Positions 21,653-38,563 of a DNA stretch of 64,000 nt are shown here, in pieces. Both the position numbers and the translations under genes were made by a program. Below the pieces are notes generated by a model. That model was given only the letters and a program-made list of their open reading frames with translations. It made no database searches and had not been told where the DNA came from. Every line of letters begins with the position of its first letter. Position 1 is the first letter of the stretch. Source of the stretch: an uncultured Gemmatimonadota bacterium (GTDB lineage: Bacteria; Gemmatimonadota; Gemmatimonadetes; Palauibacterales; KS3-K002); assembly GCA_964345885.1 (NCBI GenBank), contig CAYFSW010000170.1, positions 46,169 to 110,168 of the forward strand, in the 5' to 3' direction.

Positions 21653-21728
21653 GCGCCCGTAGCTCAATTGGACAGAGCACTGGGCTTCGGACCCAGGTGT
21701 TGGGGGTTCGAATCCTCCCGGGCGCGCC
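21653..21728 (+). tRNA. tRNA-Arg (anticodon TCG)
   Basis: Cloverleaf folds by hand: acceptor GCGCCCG/CGGGCGC, D-arm GCTC..GAGC, anticodon stem CTGGG/CCCAG with loop CTTCGGA (anticodon TCG), T-arm GGGGG-TTCGAAT-CCTCC, discriminator G. Confidence 0.8.
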
Positions 21729-21734
21729 TTTTAT

Positions 21735-21860
21735 TGGGAATTCGGGAATCAGGGAATCTGCGATTCAGGGAGTTGGGGAATTCTGGGAGGTGGGATATGG
21801 GAAGGGGAATCCGTGGAATCCGTGGAATCGGGGATTCCGGGATCCCCGATTCCCTCAATC
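21735..21860. repeat. intergenic tandem-octamer repeat element, copy A (GGGAATYC / CCGTGGAATC units)
   Basis: GGGAATTCGGGAATCAGGGAATCT...GGGGAATCCGTGGAATCCGTGGAATCGGGGATTCC. Shares its core with the elements at 27394-27615 and 35306-35530. Confidence 0.8.
21824..21853. terminator. 12-bp perfect-stem hairpin at the 3' end of repeat A; putative bidirectional terminator for tRNA-Arg (+) and nadA (-)
   Basis: GGAATCGGGGAT-TCCGGG-ATCCCCGATTCC. Lies 8 nt beyond the nadA stop codon on the minus strand. Confidence 0.4.
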
Positions 21861-23042: not shown

Positions 23043-23426
23043 GGCCGCGAGGGGGGCGAGGGGCCGCGGGTCGGCGTCCCTAAAGGGCGTGCGATTCGAG
23101 GAAAGTCCGAGCTCCAAAGGGCAAGGTGCCGGGTAACGCCCGGGCGGCGAAAGCCGACGGAAAGTGCCACAGAGAACAGACCGCCTGCGGCTAGCGCGCT
23201 AGCGCGGCTGCCGGTAAGGGTGAAACGGTGGAGTAAGAGCCCACCGCCCGCGCGGGTAACCGCCGGGGCACGGCAAACCCCACCTGGAGCAAGGCCAAGC
23301 AGGGGACAGTGGTGGCCCGCCGCGTGATGATCCCCGGGTAGGCCGCGTGAGACGCCGGGCGACCGGCGTCCCAGATGAATGGCCCGCTGAACAGAACTCG
23401 GCTTACGGCTCCCCTCCGCGGCTTCT
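23043..23426 (+). ncRNA. rnpB: RNase P RNA (bacterial type A)
   Basis: Universally conserved blocks GAGGAAAGTCCGAGCTCC, AGGGCAAGGTGCCGGGTAACGCCCGGG, GTGCCACAGAGAACAGACCGCC, GGTAAGGGTGAAACGGTGGAGTAAGAGCCCACC and ACAGAACTCGGCTTACGG. The 5' GGCCGCGAGGGGG pairs with the 3' CCCCTCCGCGGC (P1). Confidence 0.85.
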
Positions 23427-27393: not shown

Positions 27394-27615
27394 CCAAATC
27401 GGGAAATCGGGATATCGGGAATTCGGGAATCCGGAATTCGGGCATTGGGGACCGAGGAAGGGGAGTCCGTGGAATCCGTGGTATCCGTGGTATCGGGGAA
27501 TCGGGGAGTTGGGGGAATCGGGAACTCCCGAATTCCCGGATGCCACGGATTCTTGAATTCCGAGTCCGCGGCTTCCAGATTCCCGGATTCCCGGCTCCCA
27601 AGATCGATATTCGTT
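27394..27615. repeat. intergenic tandem-octamer repeat element, copy B (internally palindromic)
   Basis: AAATCGGGAAATCGGGATATCGGGAATTCGGG...GAGTCCGTGGAATCCGTGGTATCCGTGGTATCGGGGAATCGGGG...CCCGAATTCCCGGATGCCACGGATTC...ATTCCCGGATTCCCGG. The second half is the reverse complement of the first. Confidence 0.8.
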
Positions 27616-34435: not shown

Positions 34436-35305
34436 GTGAGCAGGTACGGGTCGATGAGCCCGGGCGGCATGAGGTTCGCCTATCGGATGACACCGTGGGT
34501 GAAGCGCCTGATCATAGCCAACGCTGTGTTATGGCTCTTGACCTGGTTGCGCCTGATCCCGCCCCAGCTGGCCTACGACTATCTCGGTTTCACCGCGACG
34601 GAGGTCCTCAGAGAGCCCTGGACGATCATCACCTACATGTTCGTCCACGGCGGCTTCTTCCACGTCTTCATCAACATGCTGAGGCTCTTCTTCTTCGGGC
34701 CGCCGCTCGAGGAGCGTTGGGGCGGGAAGGAGTTCTTGAAATACTACGCGATCTGCGGTGTCGCCGGTGCGCTGTTCAGTGTCGGCGCGCTGGCGTTCCC
34801 CAGCCTGGGGACCGGGACCATCCCGATCGTAGGCGCCTCCGGTGCGGTCTACGGTGTCATGCTAGCGTACGCGCTGAACTGGCCGAACAGTCTCGTCTGG
34901 ATCTACGCCATATTTCCCATCAAGGTGAAGTACCTGGTCATGATCCTGGGAGCGATGACCTTCTTCTCGGCCTTCGGCGGGGCGACCGACGGGATCGCCC
35001 ACTTCGCCCACCTGGGCGGCCTCGTCGTGGGCTACATCTACCTCAAGAAGGGCTGGCAGTTGGGGGCGCACCTGGAGGCCTGGAAGAAGCGGTTGCGCAA
35101 GCGGAGACTCAGGGTGGTGCAGGGCGGTACGGGCAAGCCGGCCCGCCCCACGCCGGCCGATGAGGAAGCCCGCATCCTGGAGGTCGTCGACAAGTTGCTC
35201 GACAAGATTGCCGCCAGCGGCCTCGAATCGCTGACTCCCGAGGAACGCCGCTTCCTCGACGAGGTCTCGCGCCGCCGCCAGGCGCAGCACGAAGTCCGAC
35301 ACTAG
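34436..35305 (+). CDS. rhomboid-family intramembrane serine protease
   Basis: Six to seven TM helices; catalytic GASGAVYG serine motif and downstream His (AHFAHLGG); charged C-terminal tail. Confidence 0.8.
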   Translation: MSRYGSMSPGGMRFAYRMTPWVKRLIIANAVLWLLTWLRLIPPQLAYDYLGFTATEVLREPWTIITYMFVHGGFFHVFINMLRLFFFGPPLEERWGGKEFLKYYAICGVAGALFSVGALAFPSLGTGTIPIVGASGAVYGVMLAYALNWPNSLVWIYAIFPIKVKYLVMILGAMTFFSAFGGATDGIAHFAHLGGLVVGYIYLKKGWQLGAHLEAWKKRLRKRRLRVVQGGTGKPARPTPADEEARILEVVDKLLDKIAASGLESLTPEERRFLDEVSRRRQAQHEVRH

Positions 35306-35530
35306 AAATTCGGCGATTCCGGCATTCCGGGATTCGGGGAGCAAGGGAAACTCGTCCCCAATTCCCCAATTCCCCGATTCCACGGACTCCACGGATTCCA
35401 CGGATTCCCGGTTCCGCAGCCCCAAAAACCTCATTCCCCGACTCCCCGACTCCCCGACTCCCCGAATCCCCAACTCCCGAACTCTCTTGACTCTCCGCTC
35501 CGCCGAAAATACGATTCCGGCCCGATCCAC
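35306..35530. repeat. intergenic tandem-octamer repeat element, copy C (inverted relative to A and B)
   Basis: CCCCAATTCCCCAATTCCCCGATTCCACGGACTCCACGGATTCCACGGATTCCCGG...CCCCGACTCCCCGACTCCCCGACTCCCCGAATCCCC is the reverse complement of the GGAATCCGTGG / GGGGAGTCGGGG units of A and B. Confidence 0.8.
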
Positions 35531-35557
35531 AATCCAGATCACCTAGGGAGGCGGCAG

Positions 35558-37651
35558 TTGTCAGCCAAGAGCTTCACTACCGATGCGATCCGCAACGTCG
35601 TGTTCCTCGGCCACGGCGGGACGGGGAAGACGACGCTGGTCGACGCGATGTGTTTCTCAGCCGGAGCGACGACCAGAAAGGGCTTGGTCGCCGACGGTAC
35701 CGCGGTCACCGACTTCACTGCCGAGGAGAAGGATCACACCATCTCGGTCAATACGGCGGTCGCGCACGCCGTTTGGCAGGACGTCAAGATCAATCTCATC
35801 GACACTCCGGGTTACCTTGATTTCGCGGGCGACGCCAAGGCGGGCGTCCGCGTCGCGGACGGTGCAGTGATCCTCGTCGATGCCACGGCCGGCGTTTTGG
35901 TCGGGACGGAGAACAGCTGGGAATACTGCGAGGAGCGTGGGATCCCCCGGATCCTGGTTGTCTCGATGATGGACAAGGAGAATGCAAATTTCGACTCGGT
36001 AATGAGCGAACTCCACGAGGAATTCTCCAAAGATGTCGTTCCCCTCGAGATCCCCATCGGGTCGGGTGAGGGATTCAGGGGTGTCGTCGATCTTCTGTCG
36101 AGCCGCGCCCGTATCTTCGATCCGAAATCGAAAAAGGGCGAGTACAAGGAAGAGAATATCCCAGCCGAACTGCAGGATGCGTGCAGCGCCGCCTATCAGG
36201 AGCTCGTCGAAGCCATCGCCGCCACCGACGACGCTCTCATGGAAGAGTACTTCGAGAAGGAGACGATCGAGCCGGCCCGAGCGGCGGAGGTGTTGAAGGC
36301 GGCGATGAAGGCCGGCCTGATCTATCCTGTCGTCTGTGCGGCCCCGGAAAGAGGGTATGGAGCCCGCGGCCTGCTAGAGCGCGTCGTCGACATCATGCCG
36401 AGCCCGGCGGAAGCCGTGCACGAGACAGCCAAGGACGGCGAGGCCGAAGTCGAGCTCAGCGCCGCCGACGACGGCCCCCTCGCCGCGCTCATCTTCAAGA
36501 CCACATCGGAACCCCACGTCGGCGAGCTCTCTTACTTCCGGGTCTTCTCCGGTTCGGTCGATGCCGGTGCCTCGGCCAAGAACACCACGCGGGGCGGCTC
36601 CGAGAAGCTCGGCCATCCTGGTGTGCCACAAGGGAAGGATAGAGCCGAGGTCGCTAAGATCCATGCCGGCGACATAGGGGTGGTCGCGAAGCTGCGGGAC
36701 ACGCATACAGGAGACACGTTGTCGGCGGAGAACCGGTCGCTCGTGCTCGAAGGGATAGCCTTCCCCGATTCAGACATCTCCGTCGCGGTAAGGCCCGCCA
36801 AGCGTGGTGACGAAGACAAAGTCTCGACCGGCCTACACAAGATCCACGAGGAAGACCCGACATTCACTGCAGCCTACGACCCGGAGCTCGGCCAGACGAT
36901 CGCCCGGGGACTCGGCGAGATGCATTTGGAACTGGCGATCGAACGGGTCAATCGTCGCTTCGGCGTCGAAGTCCAGACGGAAGCACCTCGCATTCCGTAC
37001 CGCGAAACGTTCACGAAGACGGCCGAGGGGCAGGGCCGCTACAAGAAACAGACGGGTGGCCGTGGCCAGTATGGCGACTGCTGGGTCCGCCTCAGCCCCT
37101 TGCCGCCGGGCAGCGGGTACGAGTTCAAGAACGCTATCGTGGGCGGCGTCATCCCGGGCAAGTTCGTACCCTCGGTAGACAAGGGCGTTCAGGAGGCGGC
37201 ACAGAAGGGCGTGGTAGCGGGCTATCACGTGGTCGACTTCCAAGCTGAGGTCTACGACGGCTCGCACCATTCTGTCGACTCCTCCGACATCGCCTTCAAG
37301 GTCGCTGGCTCGCTGGCCTTCAAGAACGTGGCACCCCAGGCAGGCCCGATCCTGCTCGAACCGATCTACGAGGTGGAGGTCACGGTTCCCGACGAGTACA
37401 TGGGTGACGTAATGGGCGACCTGAACCAACGGCGTGGCAAGATCCTCGGGATGGAGCCGAAGGGGAAAAAGCAGGTCGTCAGAGCGCAGGTGCCGCTGAA
37501 CGAAATGCACCGCTATTCGTCGACCCTCCGCTCTATTACCCAGGGACGCGGAAGCTACAAGATGAAGTTCTTCGCCTACGAGCAGGCACCGCCGAACGTC
37601 GTCGAGAAGGTGAAGGAGGAGGCCGCCGCTCGGGAGGAGGAGAAGAAGTAG
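35558..37651 (+). CDS. elongation factor G paralog (EF-G-like translational GTPase) with non-canonical G3 and G4 motifs
   Basis: All five EF-G domains are alignable (697 aa). P-loop GHGGTGKTT is intact, but G3 is DTPGY (Tyr codon TAC at 35813-35815) instead of DTPGH, and G4 is SMMD instead of NKMD. TTG start with GGGAGG RBS. Not located in an rpsL-rpsG-fusA-tuf context. Confidence 0.8.
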   Translation: MSAKSFTTDAIRNVVFLGHGGTGKTTLVDAMCFSAGATTRKGLVADGTAVTDFTAEEKDHTISVNTAVAHAVWQDVKINLIDTPGYLDFAGDAKAGVRVADGAVILVDATAGVLVGTENSWEYCEERGIPRILVVSMMDKENANFDSVMSELHEEFSKDVVPLEIPIGSGEGFRGVVDLLSSRARIFDPKSKKGEYKEENIPAELQDACSAAYQELVEAIAATDDALMEEYFEKETIEPARAAEVLKAAMKAGLIYPVVCAAPERGYGARGLLERVVDIMPSPAEAVHETAKDGEAEVELSAADDGPLAALIFKTTSEPHVGELSYFRVFSGSVDAGASAKNTTRGGSEKLGHPGVPQGKDRAEVAKIHAGDIGVVAKLRDTHTGDTLSAENRSLVLEGIAFPDSDISVAVRPAKRGDEDKVSTGLHKIHEEDPTFTAAYDPELGQTIARGLGEMHLELAIERVNRRFGVEVQTEAPRIPYRETFTKTAEGQGRYKKQTGGRGQYGDCWVRLSPLPPGSGYEFKNAIVGGVIPGKFVPSVDKGVQEAAQKGVVAGYHVVDFQAEVYDGSHHSVDSSDIAFKVAGSLAFKNVAPQAGPILLEPIYEVEVTVPDEYMGDVMGDLNQRRGKILGMEPKGKKQVVRAQVPLNEMHRYSSTLRSITQGRGSYKMKFFAYEQAPPNVVEKVKEEAAAREEEKK

Positions 37652-37662
37652 GCGGTAGACAG

Positions 37663-37717
37663 TATGCGGTGTGCTGTGTGCAGTGATGGGCCGACGGCGA
37701 ACTCCGCACACCGCATA
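37663..37717 (+). terminator. hairpin downstream of the EF-G paralog (possible terminator)
   Basis: TATGCGGTGTGC ... GCACACCGCATA 12-bp inverted repeat starting 12 nt after the stop, followed by direct repeats of CGCACACCG. No U-tract, so weak as an intrinsic terminator. Confidence 0.3.
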
Positions 37718-37804
37718 CCGCATATCGCACACCGAATTGATCAGCCCTCCCTGCACCCCTATCTTTCCGGGTGTTGAAGGTCCAGCAACAAAAGGAAGGA
37801 GAGA

Positions 37805-38563
37805 ATGGCCGGCCACAGCAAGTGGTCGCAGATCAAGCGCAAGAAAGCGGCCGAGGACAGCAAGCGCGGCAAGCTTTTTGGCAGACTGATCCGCGAGATC
37901 ACGGTGGCTGCCCGCGAAGGCGGCGGCGATCCCGACGGCAACCCTTGGCTGCGGACGGCGATAGAAAACGCCAAGGCGGCCAACATGCCGAAGGACAACA
38001 TCGAGAAGGCGATTCTGCGCGGGACGGGAGCGCTGCCGGGGGCGTCGTTCGAGGAGGTCAGCTACGAGGCCTACGGGCCGGGCGGTGTGGCTATCCTCGT
38101 GCAAGCCGTGACCGACAACACCAACCGGACGGTGGCCGCGGTTCGCCATGTGCTGGAACGGTATGGCGGCAGCATGGGCAGCTCCGGGTCGGTGGCTTGG
38201 AACTTCGACCGCGTGGGCCAGCTATTGGTCGACGCAAACCGTTACGACGAGGAGACGGCGCTGGAGGCCGCGCTCAACGCCGGGGCCGAAGACATGGAGT
38301 CTGAGGTAGACAGCTACGTGGTGACGACCAGTCCCTCCGACTTCCACGCCGTACAGGAAGCGCTGCGCGGCAGCGGGATCGAGATCGCCGAAGCGCGCCT
38401 CGTCATGAATCCCAAGACCACGGTCCGGGTGGAGGGTCGTGAGGCTGAGAAACTGATCGCCCTGCTGGAAGCGCTTGAGGACCAGGACGACGTGCAGCAG
38501 GTCTACTCGAACCTAGATATCGACGAAGCTCTGCTCGCAGAGCTTGCCGGCGCCGGTCAGTAG
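37805..38563 (+). CDS. yebC: YebC/PmpR-family DNA-binding transcriptional regulator
   Basis: MAGHSKWSQIKRKKAAEDSKRGKLF... is the highly conserved YebC N-terminus. Strong RBS AAGGAAGGAGAG. Confidence 0.9.
   Translation: MAGHSKWSQIKRKKAAEDSKRGKLFGRLIREITVAAREGGGDPDGNPWLRTAIENAKAANMPKDNIEKAILRGTGALPGASFEEVSYEAYGPGGVAILVQAVTDNTNRTVAAVRHVLERYGGSMGSSGSVAWNFDRVGQLLVDANRYDEETALEAALNAGAEDMESEVDSYVVTTSPSDFHAVQEALRGSGIEIAEARLVMNPKTTVRVEGREAEKLIALLEALEDQDDVQQVYSNLDIDEALLAELAGAGQ

What the first reader, a model, noticed from the sequence alone, without database searches (positions are those of the whole stretch)
35558..37651. EF-G paralog with the catalytic His of the DTPGH switch-II motif replaced by Tyr and an altered NKMD motif
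The protein aligns end-to-end with EF-G, and its P-loop (GHGGTGKTT) is intact. The universally conserved G3 motif DTPGH reads DTPGY here, with codon TAC at 35813-35815. In EF-Tu and EF-G this histidine positions the hydrolytic water, and His-to-other substitutions abolish ribosome-stimulated GTP hydrolysis. The G4 guanine-specificity motif NKMD reads SMMD. The gene is solitary (no rpsL/rpsG/tuf context) and follows repeat copy C. Together this predicts a GTPase-impaired or altered-specificity EF-G-like factor, possibly a ribosome-binding regulatory or rescue factor, rather than the canonical translocase.
Basis: partly seen in the sequence, partly recalled or inferred. Interest (0 to 1): 0.6.

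Follow-up and report, generated by a model that had tools for sequence, protein, structure and literature searches.

The report
EF-G2-type (EFG II) elongation factor paralog
This gene encodes a member of the already-described "EFG II / EF-G2" family of second elongation factor G copies, in which the catalytic histidine is normally missing; it is a real, conserved gene of Gemmatimonadota bacteria, but an ordinary member of a known family.

Summary
The ORF at 35558-37651 (+) encodes a full-length five-domain EF-G homolog with GHGGTGKTTL, DTPGY (TAC at 35813-35815) and SMMD. These states are not errors. All 120 closest database orthologs and all 80 species-level genomic homologs lack the His (Tyr, Phe or Leu instead), and the gene is under strong purifying selection (dN/dS about 0.05-0.09).

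The His is not "universally conserved". The protein belongs to the EFG II/EF-G2 subfamily (Margus 2011; Atkinson 2015) and carries all six type I diagnostic residues. It separates from canonical EF-Gs with 100% bootstrap. Solved or characterised members share the trait: T. thermophilus EF-G-2 (DAPGY/TKLD), M. smegmatis EF-G2 (Tyr98) and B. thetaiotaomicron EF-G2 (DCPGS/NQLD).

Gemmatimonas aurantiaca is catalogued with both EFG and EFGII, so a canonical fusA elsewhere is expected. I could not show this for the window's own genome.

The only mildly new points are two. Both Asn and Lys of G4 were lost across the whole phylum ([ST]-x-[MLI]-D). The gene also sits in a conserved position next to the translation factor gene yebC, with its own conserved promoter.

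Most likely function: a ribosome-binding translocase with poor or no GTP hydrolysis, used as an alternative to EF-G. Interest is low.

The parts
35487..35515 (+). Sigma-70-like promoter TTGACT-N17-TACGAT, dedicated to the EFG II gene
   Evidence: This is the only promoter-like hit in 35200-37900. TTGAC(T)-N17-(AAAA)TACGAT sits at the same distance from the start codon in L001-L010, L012, L018 and L060, although the rest of the intergenic sequence has diverged.
35545..35551 (+). Shine-Dalgarno AGGGAGG, 6 nt before the TTG start codon
   Evidence: Read directly. GGGAGG/GGAGG and the TTG start are conserved in close orthologs, while more distant ones use ATG.
35558..37651 (+). EFG II / EF-G2-type elongation factor G paralog, 697 aa (G domain with G' 11-282, domain II 308-390, III 402-475, IV 477-595, V 599-684)
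   Evidence: NCBIfam NF009381 (PRK12740.1-5) scores 886.8 bits against a cutoff of 583. The AF2 model has pLDDT 92.6 and TM 0.94 to ribosome-bound EF-G. dN/dS is 0.05-0.09.
35609..35638 (+). G1/P-loop GHGGTGKTTL: Walker GxxxxGK[ST] intact, with the EFG II states Gly18 (1WDT G16), Gly21 in place of the cation-binding Asp, and Leu27 (1WDT L25)
   Evidence: G, H and K are invariant in 120 orthologs. The EFG II states follow Margus 2011 Table 1 and Atkinson 2015.
35735..35749 (+). G2/switch I HTISV in place of RGITI (Mg-coordinating Thr replaced by Ser63)
   Evidence: Orthologs have S in 104 and T in 16 of 120. The relaxed xxxSx pattern is the EFG II hallmark.
35801..35815 (+). G3/switch II DTPGY: Asp82 and Gly85 kept, catalytic His replaced by Tyr86 (TAC 35813-35815)
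   Evidence: Orthologs have Y in 114 and F in 6 of 120. All 80 genomic homologs have Y, F or L. The position equals Tyr84 of 1WDT and Tyr98 of M. smegmatis EF-G2.
35963..35974 (+). G4 SMMD in place of NKxD: Asn and Lys lost, guanine-specifying Asp139 kept
   Evidence: [STA][MQL][MLI]D occurs in 119 of 120 orthologs. It is specific to the Gemmatimonadota EFG II clade, while Calditrichota, Bacteroidota and Ignavibacteria relatives keep NKLD.
36335..36355 (+). G5 region CAAPERG in place of canonical C-G-S-A-x-K-N
37049..37075 (+). Domain IV tip loop I QTGGRGQYG (preceded by the EFG II-typical K496 K497)
   Evidence: It is invariant or nearly so in all homologs. Domain IV has the lowest dN/dS, 0.008-0.04 for the four window-versus-ortholog pairs.
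37262..37285 (+). Domain IV tip loop II SHHSVDSS (H571, V573, D574, S575 invariant)
37662..37725 (+). Long hairpin just after the stop codon (13-bp stem GTATGCGGTGTGC / GCACACCGCATAC), terminator-like but without a U tract
   Evidence: dG -45 kcal/mol, z -2.4. Species-specific long palindromes occupy the same position in L001-L004, L012 and L018. No canonical intrinsic terminator was found.
37805..38563 (+). yebC (TACO1/YebC family translation factor), the conserved downstream neighbour, followed by ruvC-ruvA-ruvB-queA-tgt
   Evidence: Pfam. The synteny holds in 20 species-level Gemmatimonadota genomes. The gap to yebC is only 4-18 nt in L013, L019 and Eisenbacteria L036.

Best explanation
The gene encodes the Gemmatimonadota ortholog of the EFG II (EF-G2) subfamily. 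This is an ancient second copy of elongation factor G that coexists with the canonical str-operon EF-G.

Shown: it keeps the whole EF-G body. That includes the G' subdomain with its acidic patch and an invariant, very strongly constrained domain IV tip that reaches into the 30S decoding site. It also keeps the minimal nucleotide-switch elements: the P-loop Lys/Thr, switch I Ser/Thr, the DxxG Asp and Gly, and the G4 Asp. It has lost the parts that canonical EF-G uses for fast ribosome-activated hydrolysis and tight guanine binding: the catalytic His (now Tyr), the cation-binding Asp of the P-loop, the RGITI residues, the G4 Asn and Lys, and G5.

Inferred: it binds the ribosomal factor site in a GTP-dependent conformation. 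It promotes or stabilises tRNA-mRNA translocation slowly, with little or no GTP hydrolysis and probably weak, fast-exchanging nucleotide binding. It would serve as an energy-saving or stress-time alternative to EF-G, as reported for B. thetaiotaomicron EF-G2.

It is transcribed from its own conserved sigma-70-type promoter and lies next to another translation elongation helper gene, yebC.
For: Family assignment:
- The best NCBIfam model is NF009381 of the PRK12740 (EF-G2-like) series, at 886.8 bits.
- All 6 type I EFG II-diagnostic residues of Margus 2011 are present (G16, L25, S61, T291, G333, K352 in 1WDT numbering), as are 6 of 7 type II residues. Canonical EF-Gs show A/T/T/I-V/A/G at the type I positions, with single exceptions in two of five comparators.
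- Canonical EF-Gs split from all His-less sequences, including 1WDT and the window protein, with 100/100 NJ bootstrap.
- An EFG II G-domain profile ranks 1WDT and B. theta EF-G2 7UVP above every canonical EF-G in the PDB.

A maintained state, not decay:
- dN/dS is 0.05-0.09 overall, 0.04-0.10 in the G core and 0.008-0.04 in domain IV for the four window-versus-ortholog pairs.
- The P-loop G/H/K, DxxG D/G and G4 D are invariant or nearly invariant in 120 orthologs.
- Synteny and the promoter are conserved across about 20 species.

Fold: the AF2 model has pLDDT 92.6. TM is 0.94 to ribosome-bound EF-G, 0.89 to M. smegmatis EF-G2 on the 70S and 0.86 to B. theta EF-G2 on the ribosome.

Functional analogy:
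- H88Y nearly abolishes the GTPase of M. smegmatis EF-G1, and its EF-G2 has Tyr98 and minimal GTPase.
- B. theta EF-G2 (DCPGS, NQLD) supports GTP-hydrolysis-independent translation and is induced more than 200-fold on carbon limitation.

Against: No biochemical or expression data exist for any Gemmatimonadota EFG II.

The three characterised EFG II proteins behave differently, and each is only about 37-40% identical to this protein. T. thermophilus EF-G-2 is an active GTPase and translocase despite Tyr. B. theta EF-G2 is a GTPase-less slow translocase. M. smegmatis EF-G2 has minimal GTPase and is described as trapping post-translocation ribosomes.

In B. theta the lack of GTPase was attributed to a 26-residue EF-G2-specific region (my recollection of Han et al. 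2023, which is not held in the library). This protein appears to lack that region: it has 697 aa against 718, and the HMM and PDB alignments break near residue 515.

The canonical fusA of this very genome was not seen. Nucleotide binding with SMMD is untested.
Confidence: 0.6

Rival explanations
1. The family is the same (EFG II), but the protein acts mainly as a ribosome-trapping or translation-slowing regulator, not as a productive translocase. It would bind and hold post-translocation ribosomes during stress, as proposed for M. smegmatis EF-G2.
For: [quoted passage not shown] The AF2 model superposes on ribosome-bound M. smegmatis EF-G2 at TM 0.89.
Against: This protein is much closer to canonical EF-G (about 40-42% identity, and it passes the TIGR00484 cutoff) than M. 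smegmatis EF-G2 is to its EF-G1 (31%). The domain IV tip loops are canonical in sequence and are the most constrained part of the protein. That fits an active role at the decoding centre.
Confidence: 0.22
2. The family is the same (EFG II), but the protein is still a competent ribosome-dependent GTPase that uses a different catalytic arrangement, like T. thermophilus EF-G-2. It would then be simply a second, kinetically different translocase.
For: T. thermophilus EF-G-2 has DAPGY and is reported to have intrinsic and ribosome-dependent GTPase and near-normal poly(Phe) synthesis. The P-loop, DxxG and switch I Ser/Thr are all strictly conserved here.
Against: This clade has additionally lost the G4 Asn and Lys, which T. 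thermophilus EF-G-2 partly keeps (TKLD). H88Y nearly abolishes GTPase in a canonical background.
Confidence: 0.15
3. It is the organism's only or canonical EF-G, or the unusual residues are a sequencing error, a strain-specific mutation or a decaying pseudogene.
For: It passes the TIGR00484 EF-G equivalog cutoff (685 vs 659.4 bits), and sources name it 'elongation factor G'. The canonical fusA of this genome was not observed directly.
Against: The same residues occur in 120 orthologs and in 80 species genomes. dN/dS is 0.05-0.09. There is no str-operon context. It carries the EFG II diagnostic residues and tree position. The phylum's type species has both EFG and EFGII.
Confidence: 0.02
4. It is a Tet(M)/Tet(O)-like ribosomal protection protein or another EF-G-like trGTPase (RF3, BipA, LepA, or a recycling-specific spdEFG2/mtEF-G2 type).
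For: There is weak homology to all of these, as expected within the EF2 superfamily.
Against: It falls far below the family cutoffs: tet_protect 279 vs 775, RF3 152 vs 473, TypA 151 vs 757, LepA 127 vs 534. It has the full G' subdomain and EF-G-type domain IV loops. Human mitochondrial EF-G2 is reported to keep the catalytic His, whereas this clade never has it.
Confidence: 0.01

Closest known systems
EFG II subfamily of elongation factor G (Margus, Remm & Tenson 2011, PMC3150367; 'EFGII' in Atkinson 2015, PMC4342817)
   Same: All six type I diagnostic residues match, and 6 of 7 type II. G2 is relaxed to xxxSx, and Gly replaces the P-loop Asp. The gene lies outside the str operon. Domain IV is conserved and the acidic G' patch is kept. 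The phylum (G. aurantiaca) is already listed as having EFG plus EFGII.
   Different: Margus 2011 describe G4 (NKxD) and G5 as conserved in EFG II. In the Gemmatimonadota clade both Asn and Lys of G4 are gone ([ST]-x-[MLI]-D) and G5 is unrecognisable. This protein is also unusually undiverged for an EFG II: it has no large indels and is 40-42% identical to canonical EF-G.
Thermus thermophilus EF-G-2 (PDB 1WDT/2DY1)
   Same: It has Tyr at the catalytic-His position (DAPGY), a GHxGxGKTTL P-loop and the same five-domain fold (TM 0.82). It is the best PDB hit of the EFG II G-domain profile.
   Different: Identity is 39.7%. T. thermophilus EF-G-2 keeps the G4 Lys (TKLD) and has Thr in G2. It is 32 residues shorter. 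It is reported to be an active GTPase.
Bacteroides thetaiotaomicron EF-G2 (BT2167; PDB 7UVP/8DMF)
   Same: It lacks the catalytic His (DCPGS) and the G4 Lys (NQLD), and has GKTTL and Ser in G2. It lies outside the str operon. It is reported as a GTPase-less slow translocase induced by carbon starvation.
   Different: The residue at the His position is Ser, not Tyr, and the P-loop His is also lost (GSSGSGK). It is 718 aa, with about 21-25 extra residues relative to this protein. The window protein scores 619.6 against the 1000-bit cutoff of NF058620 EFG2_Bacteroid. Its regulation by BT4338/Cur has no counterpart shown here.
Mycobacterium smegmatis EF-G2 (PDB 9K0Z)
   Same: It has His-to-Tyr (Tyr98), an altered G4 (TKLD), a G5 that is not conserved and a Gly-rich P-loop. 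It binds the ribosome (TM 0.89 to the model).
   Different: It is much more divergent (31% to its own EF-G1) and keeps the G4 Lys. Its domain IV loops are described as displaced from the tRNA, and it is proposed to trap ribosomes and not to translocate.
Canonical EF-G (EFG I, fusA of the str operon)
   Same: The length, domain order and domain IV loops are the same. It passes the TIGR00484 score cutoff and is 40-42% identical.
   Different: It lacks AHIDAGKTT, RGITI, DTPGH, NKxD and G-S-A-x-K, and has no rpsL/rpsG/tuf neighbours.

Membership tests
EFG II / EF-G2 subfamily | Type I diagnostic residues (1WDT numbering): Gly16, Leu25, Ser61, Thr291, Gly333, Lys/Arg352 | tested here: met
   The window protein has G, L, S, T, G, K. 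At these positions canonical EF-Gs (S. aureus, Dictyoglomus and 3 others) have A/T/T/I-V/A/G, except Leu at 25 in Dictyoglomus P0154 and Cys at 25 and Gly at 333 in P0262.
EFG II / EF-G2 subfamily | Type II positions under stronger selection (D216, V250, L264, K471, K472, E513, G603) | tested here: met
   6 of 7 match. Position 513 is Asp in this clade instead of Glu.
EFG II / EF-G2 subfamily | trGTPase G2 consensus RGITI relaxed to xxxSx | tested here: met
   The window protein reads HTISV. Orthologs have Ser in 104 and Thr in 16 of 120.
EFG II / EF-G2 subfamily | Forms a branch separate from EFG I in phylogeny | tested here: met
   In an NJ tree of 83 taxa with 100 bootstraps, the canonical group splits from all His-less sequences (including 1WDT and the window protein) at 100%. 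Only NJ with a Kimura distance was used; no ML or Bayesian tree was run.
EFG II / EF-G2 subfamily | Always accompanied by another EF-G (usually EFG I) in the same genome | not testable with these tools
   No canonical EF-G lies in the 64-kb window or within 10 kb either side of the 80 homologs. The literature lists G. aurantiaca T-27 with EFG plus EFGII.
EFG II / EF-G2 subfamily | [quoted passage not shown] | tested here: not met
   DxPG is met, but G4 is SMMD and G5 is CAAPERG. This criterion is itself loose. 34 of 149 family representatives lack Lys/Arg at G4 position 2, and B. theta EF-G2 has NQLD. I therefore read this as clade variation and not as exclusion from the family.
Canonical EF-G (EFG I, fusA) | Catalytic His in DTPGH, plus AHIDAGKTT, RGITI and NKxD | tested here: not met
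   The window protein has DTPGY, GHGGTGKTTL, HTISV and SMMD, and these are conserved in all orthologs.
Canonical EF-G (EFG I, fusA) | Location in the str operon (rpsL-rpsG-fusA-tuf) | tested here: not met
   The neighbours are mutS, a TonB_C-domain gene, ddl and rhomboid upstream, and yebC, ruvCAB, queA and tgt downstream.
Canonical EF-G (EFG I, fusA) | TIGR00484 equivalog score cutoff | tested here: met
   The score is 685 against a cutoff of 659.4. This explains why sources name it 'elongation factor G', but the better-scoring model is NF009381 (886.8 bits).
Bacteroides-type EF-G2 (NF058620) / EF-G2 equivalog NF009377 | Curated HMM cutoffs | tested here: not met
   NF058620 scores 619.6 against 1000, and NF009377 scores 636 against 890.
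Bacteroides-type EF-G2 (NF058620) / EF-G2 equivalog NF009377 | 26-residue EF-G2-specific region held responsible for the absence of GTPase (Han et al. 2023; recalled, paper not held) | tested here: inconclusive
   The protein is 697 aa against 718 aa. Alignments to 7UVP and NF058620 break near residue 515, and the Foldseek alignment has 722 columns. This suggests the region is absent, but the residues were not inspected.
Tet(M)/Tet(O) ribosomal protection proteins; RF3; BipA/TypA; LepA | Curated HMM cutoffs | tested here: not met
   tet_protect 279 vs 775, prfC 152 vs 473, TypA 151 vs 757, LepA 127 vs 534.

The most novel reading that the evidence does not exclude
The Gemmatimonadota EFG II clade (100% bootstrap) has stripped its nucleotide pocket down to the P-loop, the switch I Ser, DxxG and a lone G4 Asp. 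It has no Asn or Lys in G4, no G5, no cation-site Asp and no catalytic His. Yet the G core stays under strong purifying selection. This could mark a mechanistically distinct sub-type. One possibility is a very low-affinity, fast-exchanging GTP 'sensor' translocase whose ribosome occupancy tracks the cellular GTP (or ppGpp) level. It might work together with the adjacent, ancestrally co-transcribed translation factor YebC. On this reading it would not be just another EF-G2.
Probability: 0.1. Interest if true: 0.5.

Novelty: new member of a known kind. Interest (0 to 1): 0.2.

Why it matters
The main value is for annotation. Databases and NCBI's pipeline name this protein plain 'elongation factor G', and it even passes the TIGR00484 equivalog cutoff. 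It is in fact the EFG II/EF-G2 paralog, whose characterised members range from GTPase-less slow translocases to ribosome-trapping stress factors.

The survey also shows how general the loss of the catalytic His is in this family: only 7 of the 149 representatives with a residue at that column keep it. It further shows that loss of the G4 Lys recurs, including in the experimentally GTPase-less B. theta EF-G2. If GTP-hydrolysis-independent translocation is a common starvation strategy, slow-growing oligotrophic phyla such as Gemmatimonadota would be natural places to test it. Nothing here changes current understanding.

Tried and rejected
1. Sequencing error or strain-specific mutation. Rejected: 120 orthologs and 80 species genomes share the states.

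2. Pseudogene or relaxed selection. Rejected: dN/dS is 0.05-0.09, including in the G core.

3. Finding the canonical fusA of the same or a sister genome. It is not in the window or in the 80 loci. The canonical-looking representatives from the exhaustive search turned out to be Dictyoglomus or unnamed metagenome proteins, so they gave no Gemmatimonadota seed. I fell back on the Atkinson 2015 census.

4. A universal conserved gene partner across EFG II clades. None was found. Neighbours differ by clade: yebC/ruvCAB here; a HIT-family gene in Calditrichota, Chlorobiaceae and Ignavibacteria; YtxH-like genes in Bacteroidota.

5. The upstream 8-9-nt repeats as a regulatory part of the gene. Rejected: they are present only in the two closest relatives (L001, L003), whereas the promoter just downstream of them is conserved much further.

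6. An Rfam element in the leader. None was found in the window apart from RNase P RNA and one tRNA elsewhere.

7. Han et al. 2023 (PMC9841332) could not be read. Statements about it come from citing papers or, where marked, from my memory.
Full report
OBSERVATION. The ORF 35558-37651 (+) is real. It starts at a TTG that lies 6 nt after a strong Shine-Dalgarno sequence (AGGGAGG, 35545-35551) and encodes 697 aa. Pfam finds all EF-G domains: GTP_EFTU 11-282, domain 2 308-390, III 402-475, IV 477-595 and EFG_C 599-684. The protein aligns end to end with solved EF-Gs; the best match is S. aureus 2XEX at 605 bits, residues 3-685 against 2-686. G2 is HTISV instead of RGITI. G5 is CAAPERG instead of GSAxKN. 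In the P-loop the first Ala, the Asp and the Thr after GKTT are replaced by Gly, Gly and Leu.

IS IT AN ERROR OR A ONE-OFF? No. A search of 5.8 billion proteins identified the organism as a Gemmatimonadota MAG and returned 120 orthologs of 58-100% identity. At the His position they have Tyr (114) or Phe (6), never His. At G4, position 1 is S/T/A in all 120 and position 2 is M/Q/L in 119 of 120. The P-loop G/H/K, the DxxG Asp and Gly, and the G4 Asp (119/120) are invariant or nearly so. A scan of one genome per species found 80 homologous loci, and all have Tyr, Phe or Leu at this position. Pairwise dN/dS among the window and its relatives is 0.05-0.09 for the whole gene in the closer pairs. 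For the four window-versus-ortholog pairs it is 0.04-0.10 in the G core and 0.008-0.04 in domain IV, the most constrained part. The degenerate GTPase centre is therefore a maintained state.

WHAT FAMILY IS IT? The best NCBIfam model is NF009381 (PRK12740.1-5, 886.8 bits, cutoff 583), one of the PRK12740 'EF-G2-like' series. The protein also narrowly passes the canonical EF-G equivalog TIGR00484 (685 vs 659.4), which explains its database name. It fails the Bacteroides EF-G2, EF-G2 equivalog, Tet, RF3, TypA and LepA cutoffs.

An exhaustive HMMER search of 1.84 billion 50%-identity cluster representatives returned 150 best hits at 37-54% identity. Of the 149 with a residue at the His column, only 7 have His, and only 5 of those are truly canonical (AHIDAGKTT/RGITI/DTPGH/NKMD). 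The rest carry Y (71), F (32), D (12), or A/L/S/N/T/G/V/E/M. This is the large, divergent EFG II subfamily defined by Margus et al. 2011 (PMC3150367) and called EFGII by Atkinson 2015 (PMC4342817).

I recovered the deposited sequence of T. thermophilus EF-G-2 (1WDT) and used its numbering to score the published diagnostic positions. The window protein has all six type I EFG II states (G16, L25, S61, T291, G333, K352) and six of seven type II states. Five canonical EF-Gs have A/T/T/I-V/A/G at the type I positions, with single exceptions in two of them. In an NJ tree of 83 sequences, the canonical EF-Gs separate from all His-less proteins, including 1WDT and the window protein, in 100 of 100 bootstraps. 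An EFG II G-domain profile ranks 1WDT and B. thetaiotaomicron EF-G2 (7UVP) above every canonical EF-G in the PDB. An AlphaFold2 model (pLDDT 92.6, pTM 0.87) is a complete EF-G in the extended, ribosome-bound-like conformation. Its TM-scores are 0.94 to 7N2V, 0.89 to M. smegmatis EF-G2 on the 70S (9K0Z), 0.86 to B. theta EF-G2 (8DMF) and 0.82 to 1WDT.

THE HIS-TO-TYR CHANGE IS ALREADY KNOWN. 1WDT reads GHAGSGKTTL / DAPGYGDF / TKLD. For M. smegmatis EF-G2 a 2026 preprint states that catalytic His88 is replaced by Tyr98, that G4 Asn and Met are replaced by Thr and Leu, and that G5 is not conserved. It also reports that an H88Y mutation nearly abolishes the GTPase of EF-G1. B. theta EF-G2 reads GSSGSGKTTL / YGYSV / DCPGS / NQLD. 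Atkinson 2015 had noted the Gly in the EFGII P-loop at the cation-binding position.

IS THERE A CANONICAL fusA? There is none in the window and none within 10 kb of any of the 80 homologs. I could not reach the rest of the genome. [quoted passage not shown] Paralog status for this genome is thus an inference from the phylum, not a direct result.

WHAT IS SPECIFIC TO THIS CLADE? (i) All Gemmatimonadota EFG IIs form one clade (100% bootstrap), and all lack both Asn and Lys of G4 ([ST]-x-[MLI]-D). Glassbacteria and Eisenbacteria relatives mostly have NM[ML]D. Calditrichota, Bacteroidota and Ignavibacteria relatives keep NKLD. Margus 2011 described G4 and G5 as conserved in EFG II. Across the family, however, 34 of 149 representatives lack Lys/Arg at G4 position 2, so this is recurrent variation and not a new kind. 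From my own knowledge, bona fide GTPases with NxxD or TLRD-type G4 motifs (FeoB, GBPs) still bind guanine nucleotides, with low affinity and fast exchange. Because the Asp is retained here, weaker binding is more likely than changed base specificity.

(ii) Context: mutS, a TonB_C-domain gene, ddl, rhomboid, EFG II, yebC, ruvC, ruvA, ruvB, queA, tgt. This order is conserved in 20 species-level genomes down to 55% identity.

(iii) A TTGACT-N17-TACGAT promoter (35487-35515) is conserved at a fixed distance from the start codon in orthologs whose surrounding intergenic DNA is otherwise unalignable. The gene therefore has its own promoter.

(iv) Downstream lies a long hairpin (37662-37725), and close relatives carry species-specific palindromes at the same place. 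In more distant Gemmatimonadota (L013, L019) and in an Eisenbacteria MAG (L036), the gap to yebC is only 4-18 nt, which suggests ancestral co-transcription with yebC. YebC-family proteins are now known translation factors that relieve polyproline stalling (PMC12234827, PMC11990639).

MECHANISM. Shown:
- The full EF-G architecture is retained, including the acidic G' patch.
- The domain IV tip loops (QTGGRGQYG, SHHSVDSS) are invariant and under the strongest constraint.
- The minimal nucleotide-switch residues are retained.
- The hydrolysis-activating and guanine-clamping residues are lost.

Inferred: the protein binds the ribosomal factor site and inserts domain IV into the A site. It promotes or stabilises translocation with little or no GTP hydrolysis, as an alternative to EF-G under energy or nutrient limitation.

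The analogy is B. theta EF-G2. It 'enables GTP-independent translation' (PMC10294740), is cited as catalysing translocation without GTP hydrolysis (PMC12775393), and is induced 238-fold on carbon limitation while fusA falls 10-fold (PMC6989115).

Caveats. The three characterised EFG II proteins behave differently: T. thermophilus EF-G-2 is GTPase-active and M. smegmatis EF-G2 is described as a ribosome trap. Each is only about 37-40% identical to this protein. The B. theta-specific insertion seems to be absent here. I put about 0.95 on family membership and about 0.5-0.6 on the hydrolysis-poor translocase mechanism.

VERDICT. It is a new member of a known kind, of low interest, with a small clade-level twist (G4 without Asn or Lys, and the link to yebC).

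Noticed in passing
window 37652-37804; L013, L019, L036: The spacer between EFG II and yebC is 153 nt in the window, with a long hairpin and a conserved -10-like CTAT[A/C]TT. In the close relatives examined it is 97-273 nt; L001-L004, L012 and L018 carry species-specific palindromes (for example L012 at dG -136, z -10.7). In distant Gemmatimonadota (L013, L019) and an Eisenbacteria MAG (L036) it is only 4-18 nt. This suggests an ancestral EFGII-yebC operon that links two translation-elongation helpers.
   Followed up: partly
window 21736-21841, 27396-27600, 35355-35484: Arrays of 8-9-nt tandem repeats built from GGGAATC/GATTCCC-like units sit at three intergenic sites. GGGAATC occurs 20 times against 9.7 expected. 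At the EFG II site similar repeats exist only in the two closest relatives (L001, L003), so they evolve fast. Their function is unknown.
   Followed up: partly
window 23048-23421 (+) and 21653-21726 (+): A bacterial RNase P RNA class A (253 bits) and one tRNA gene. The tRNA lies immediately upstream of the first short-repeat array.
   Followed up: no
PDB 7UVP/8DMF: The deposited B. thetaiotaomicron EF-G2 sequence reads GSSGSGKTTL / YGYSV / DCPGS / NQLD. The experimentally GTPase-less translocase therefore also lacks the G4 Lys and even the P-loop His. The PDB molecule name for 7UVP is 'Tetracycline resistance protein TetQ', which is a misnomer.
   Followed up: partly
L024 (DATKXY010000157.1): A MAG titled 'archaeon' carries a bacterial-type EFG II with nearly the same motifs as the Glassbacteria locus L022 (GHGSCGKTSL / ERKISI / NMMD). 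The contig is probably mis-binned or mislabelled.
   Followed up: no
L030, L044, L047, L051, L055, L063, L064, L072, L078; L061, L062, L064, L065, L067, L071, L074, L076, L078: In Calditrichota, Chlorobiaceae and Ignavibacteria a HIT-family (HxHxH) gene lies just downstream of EFG II, directly adjacent in eight of the nine loci. In Bacteroidota and Ignavibacteria small YtxH-like or membrane stress-type proteins lie just upstream. These are clade-specific partners and are not shared with the window.
   Followed up: partly
P0256, P0153, P0260: P0256 is a 1040-aa protein with a fully canonical EF-G preceded by an N-terminal extension of about 340 aa. P0153 and P0260 have EFG II-like P-loops (GQRGCGKTTL, GTFGSGKTTL) but keep His in G3. 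They may be intermediates or revertants.
   Followed up: no
window 35558; L013-L019: The TTG start codon is conserved in the 75-95% identity orthologs, while more distant orthologs use ATG. The nearest database protein (P0001) differs from the window protein by one extra Glu in the C-terminal acidic tail (698 vs 697 aa).
   Followed up: no
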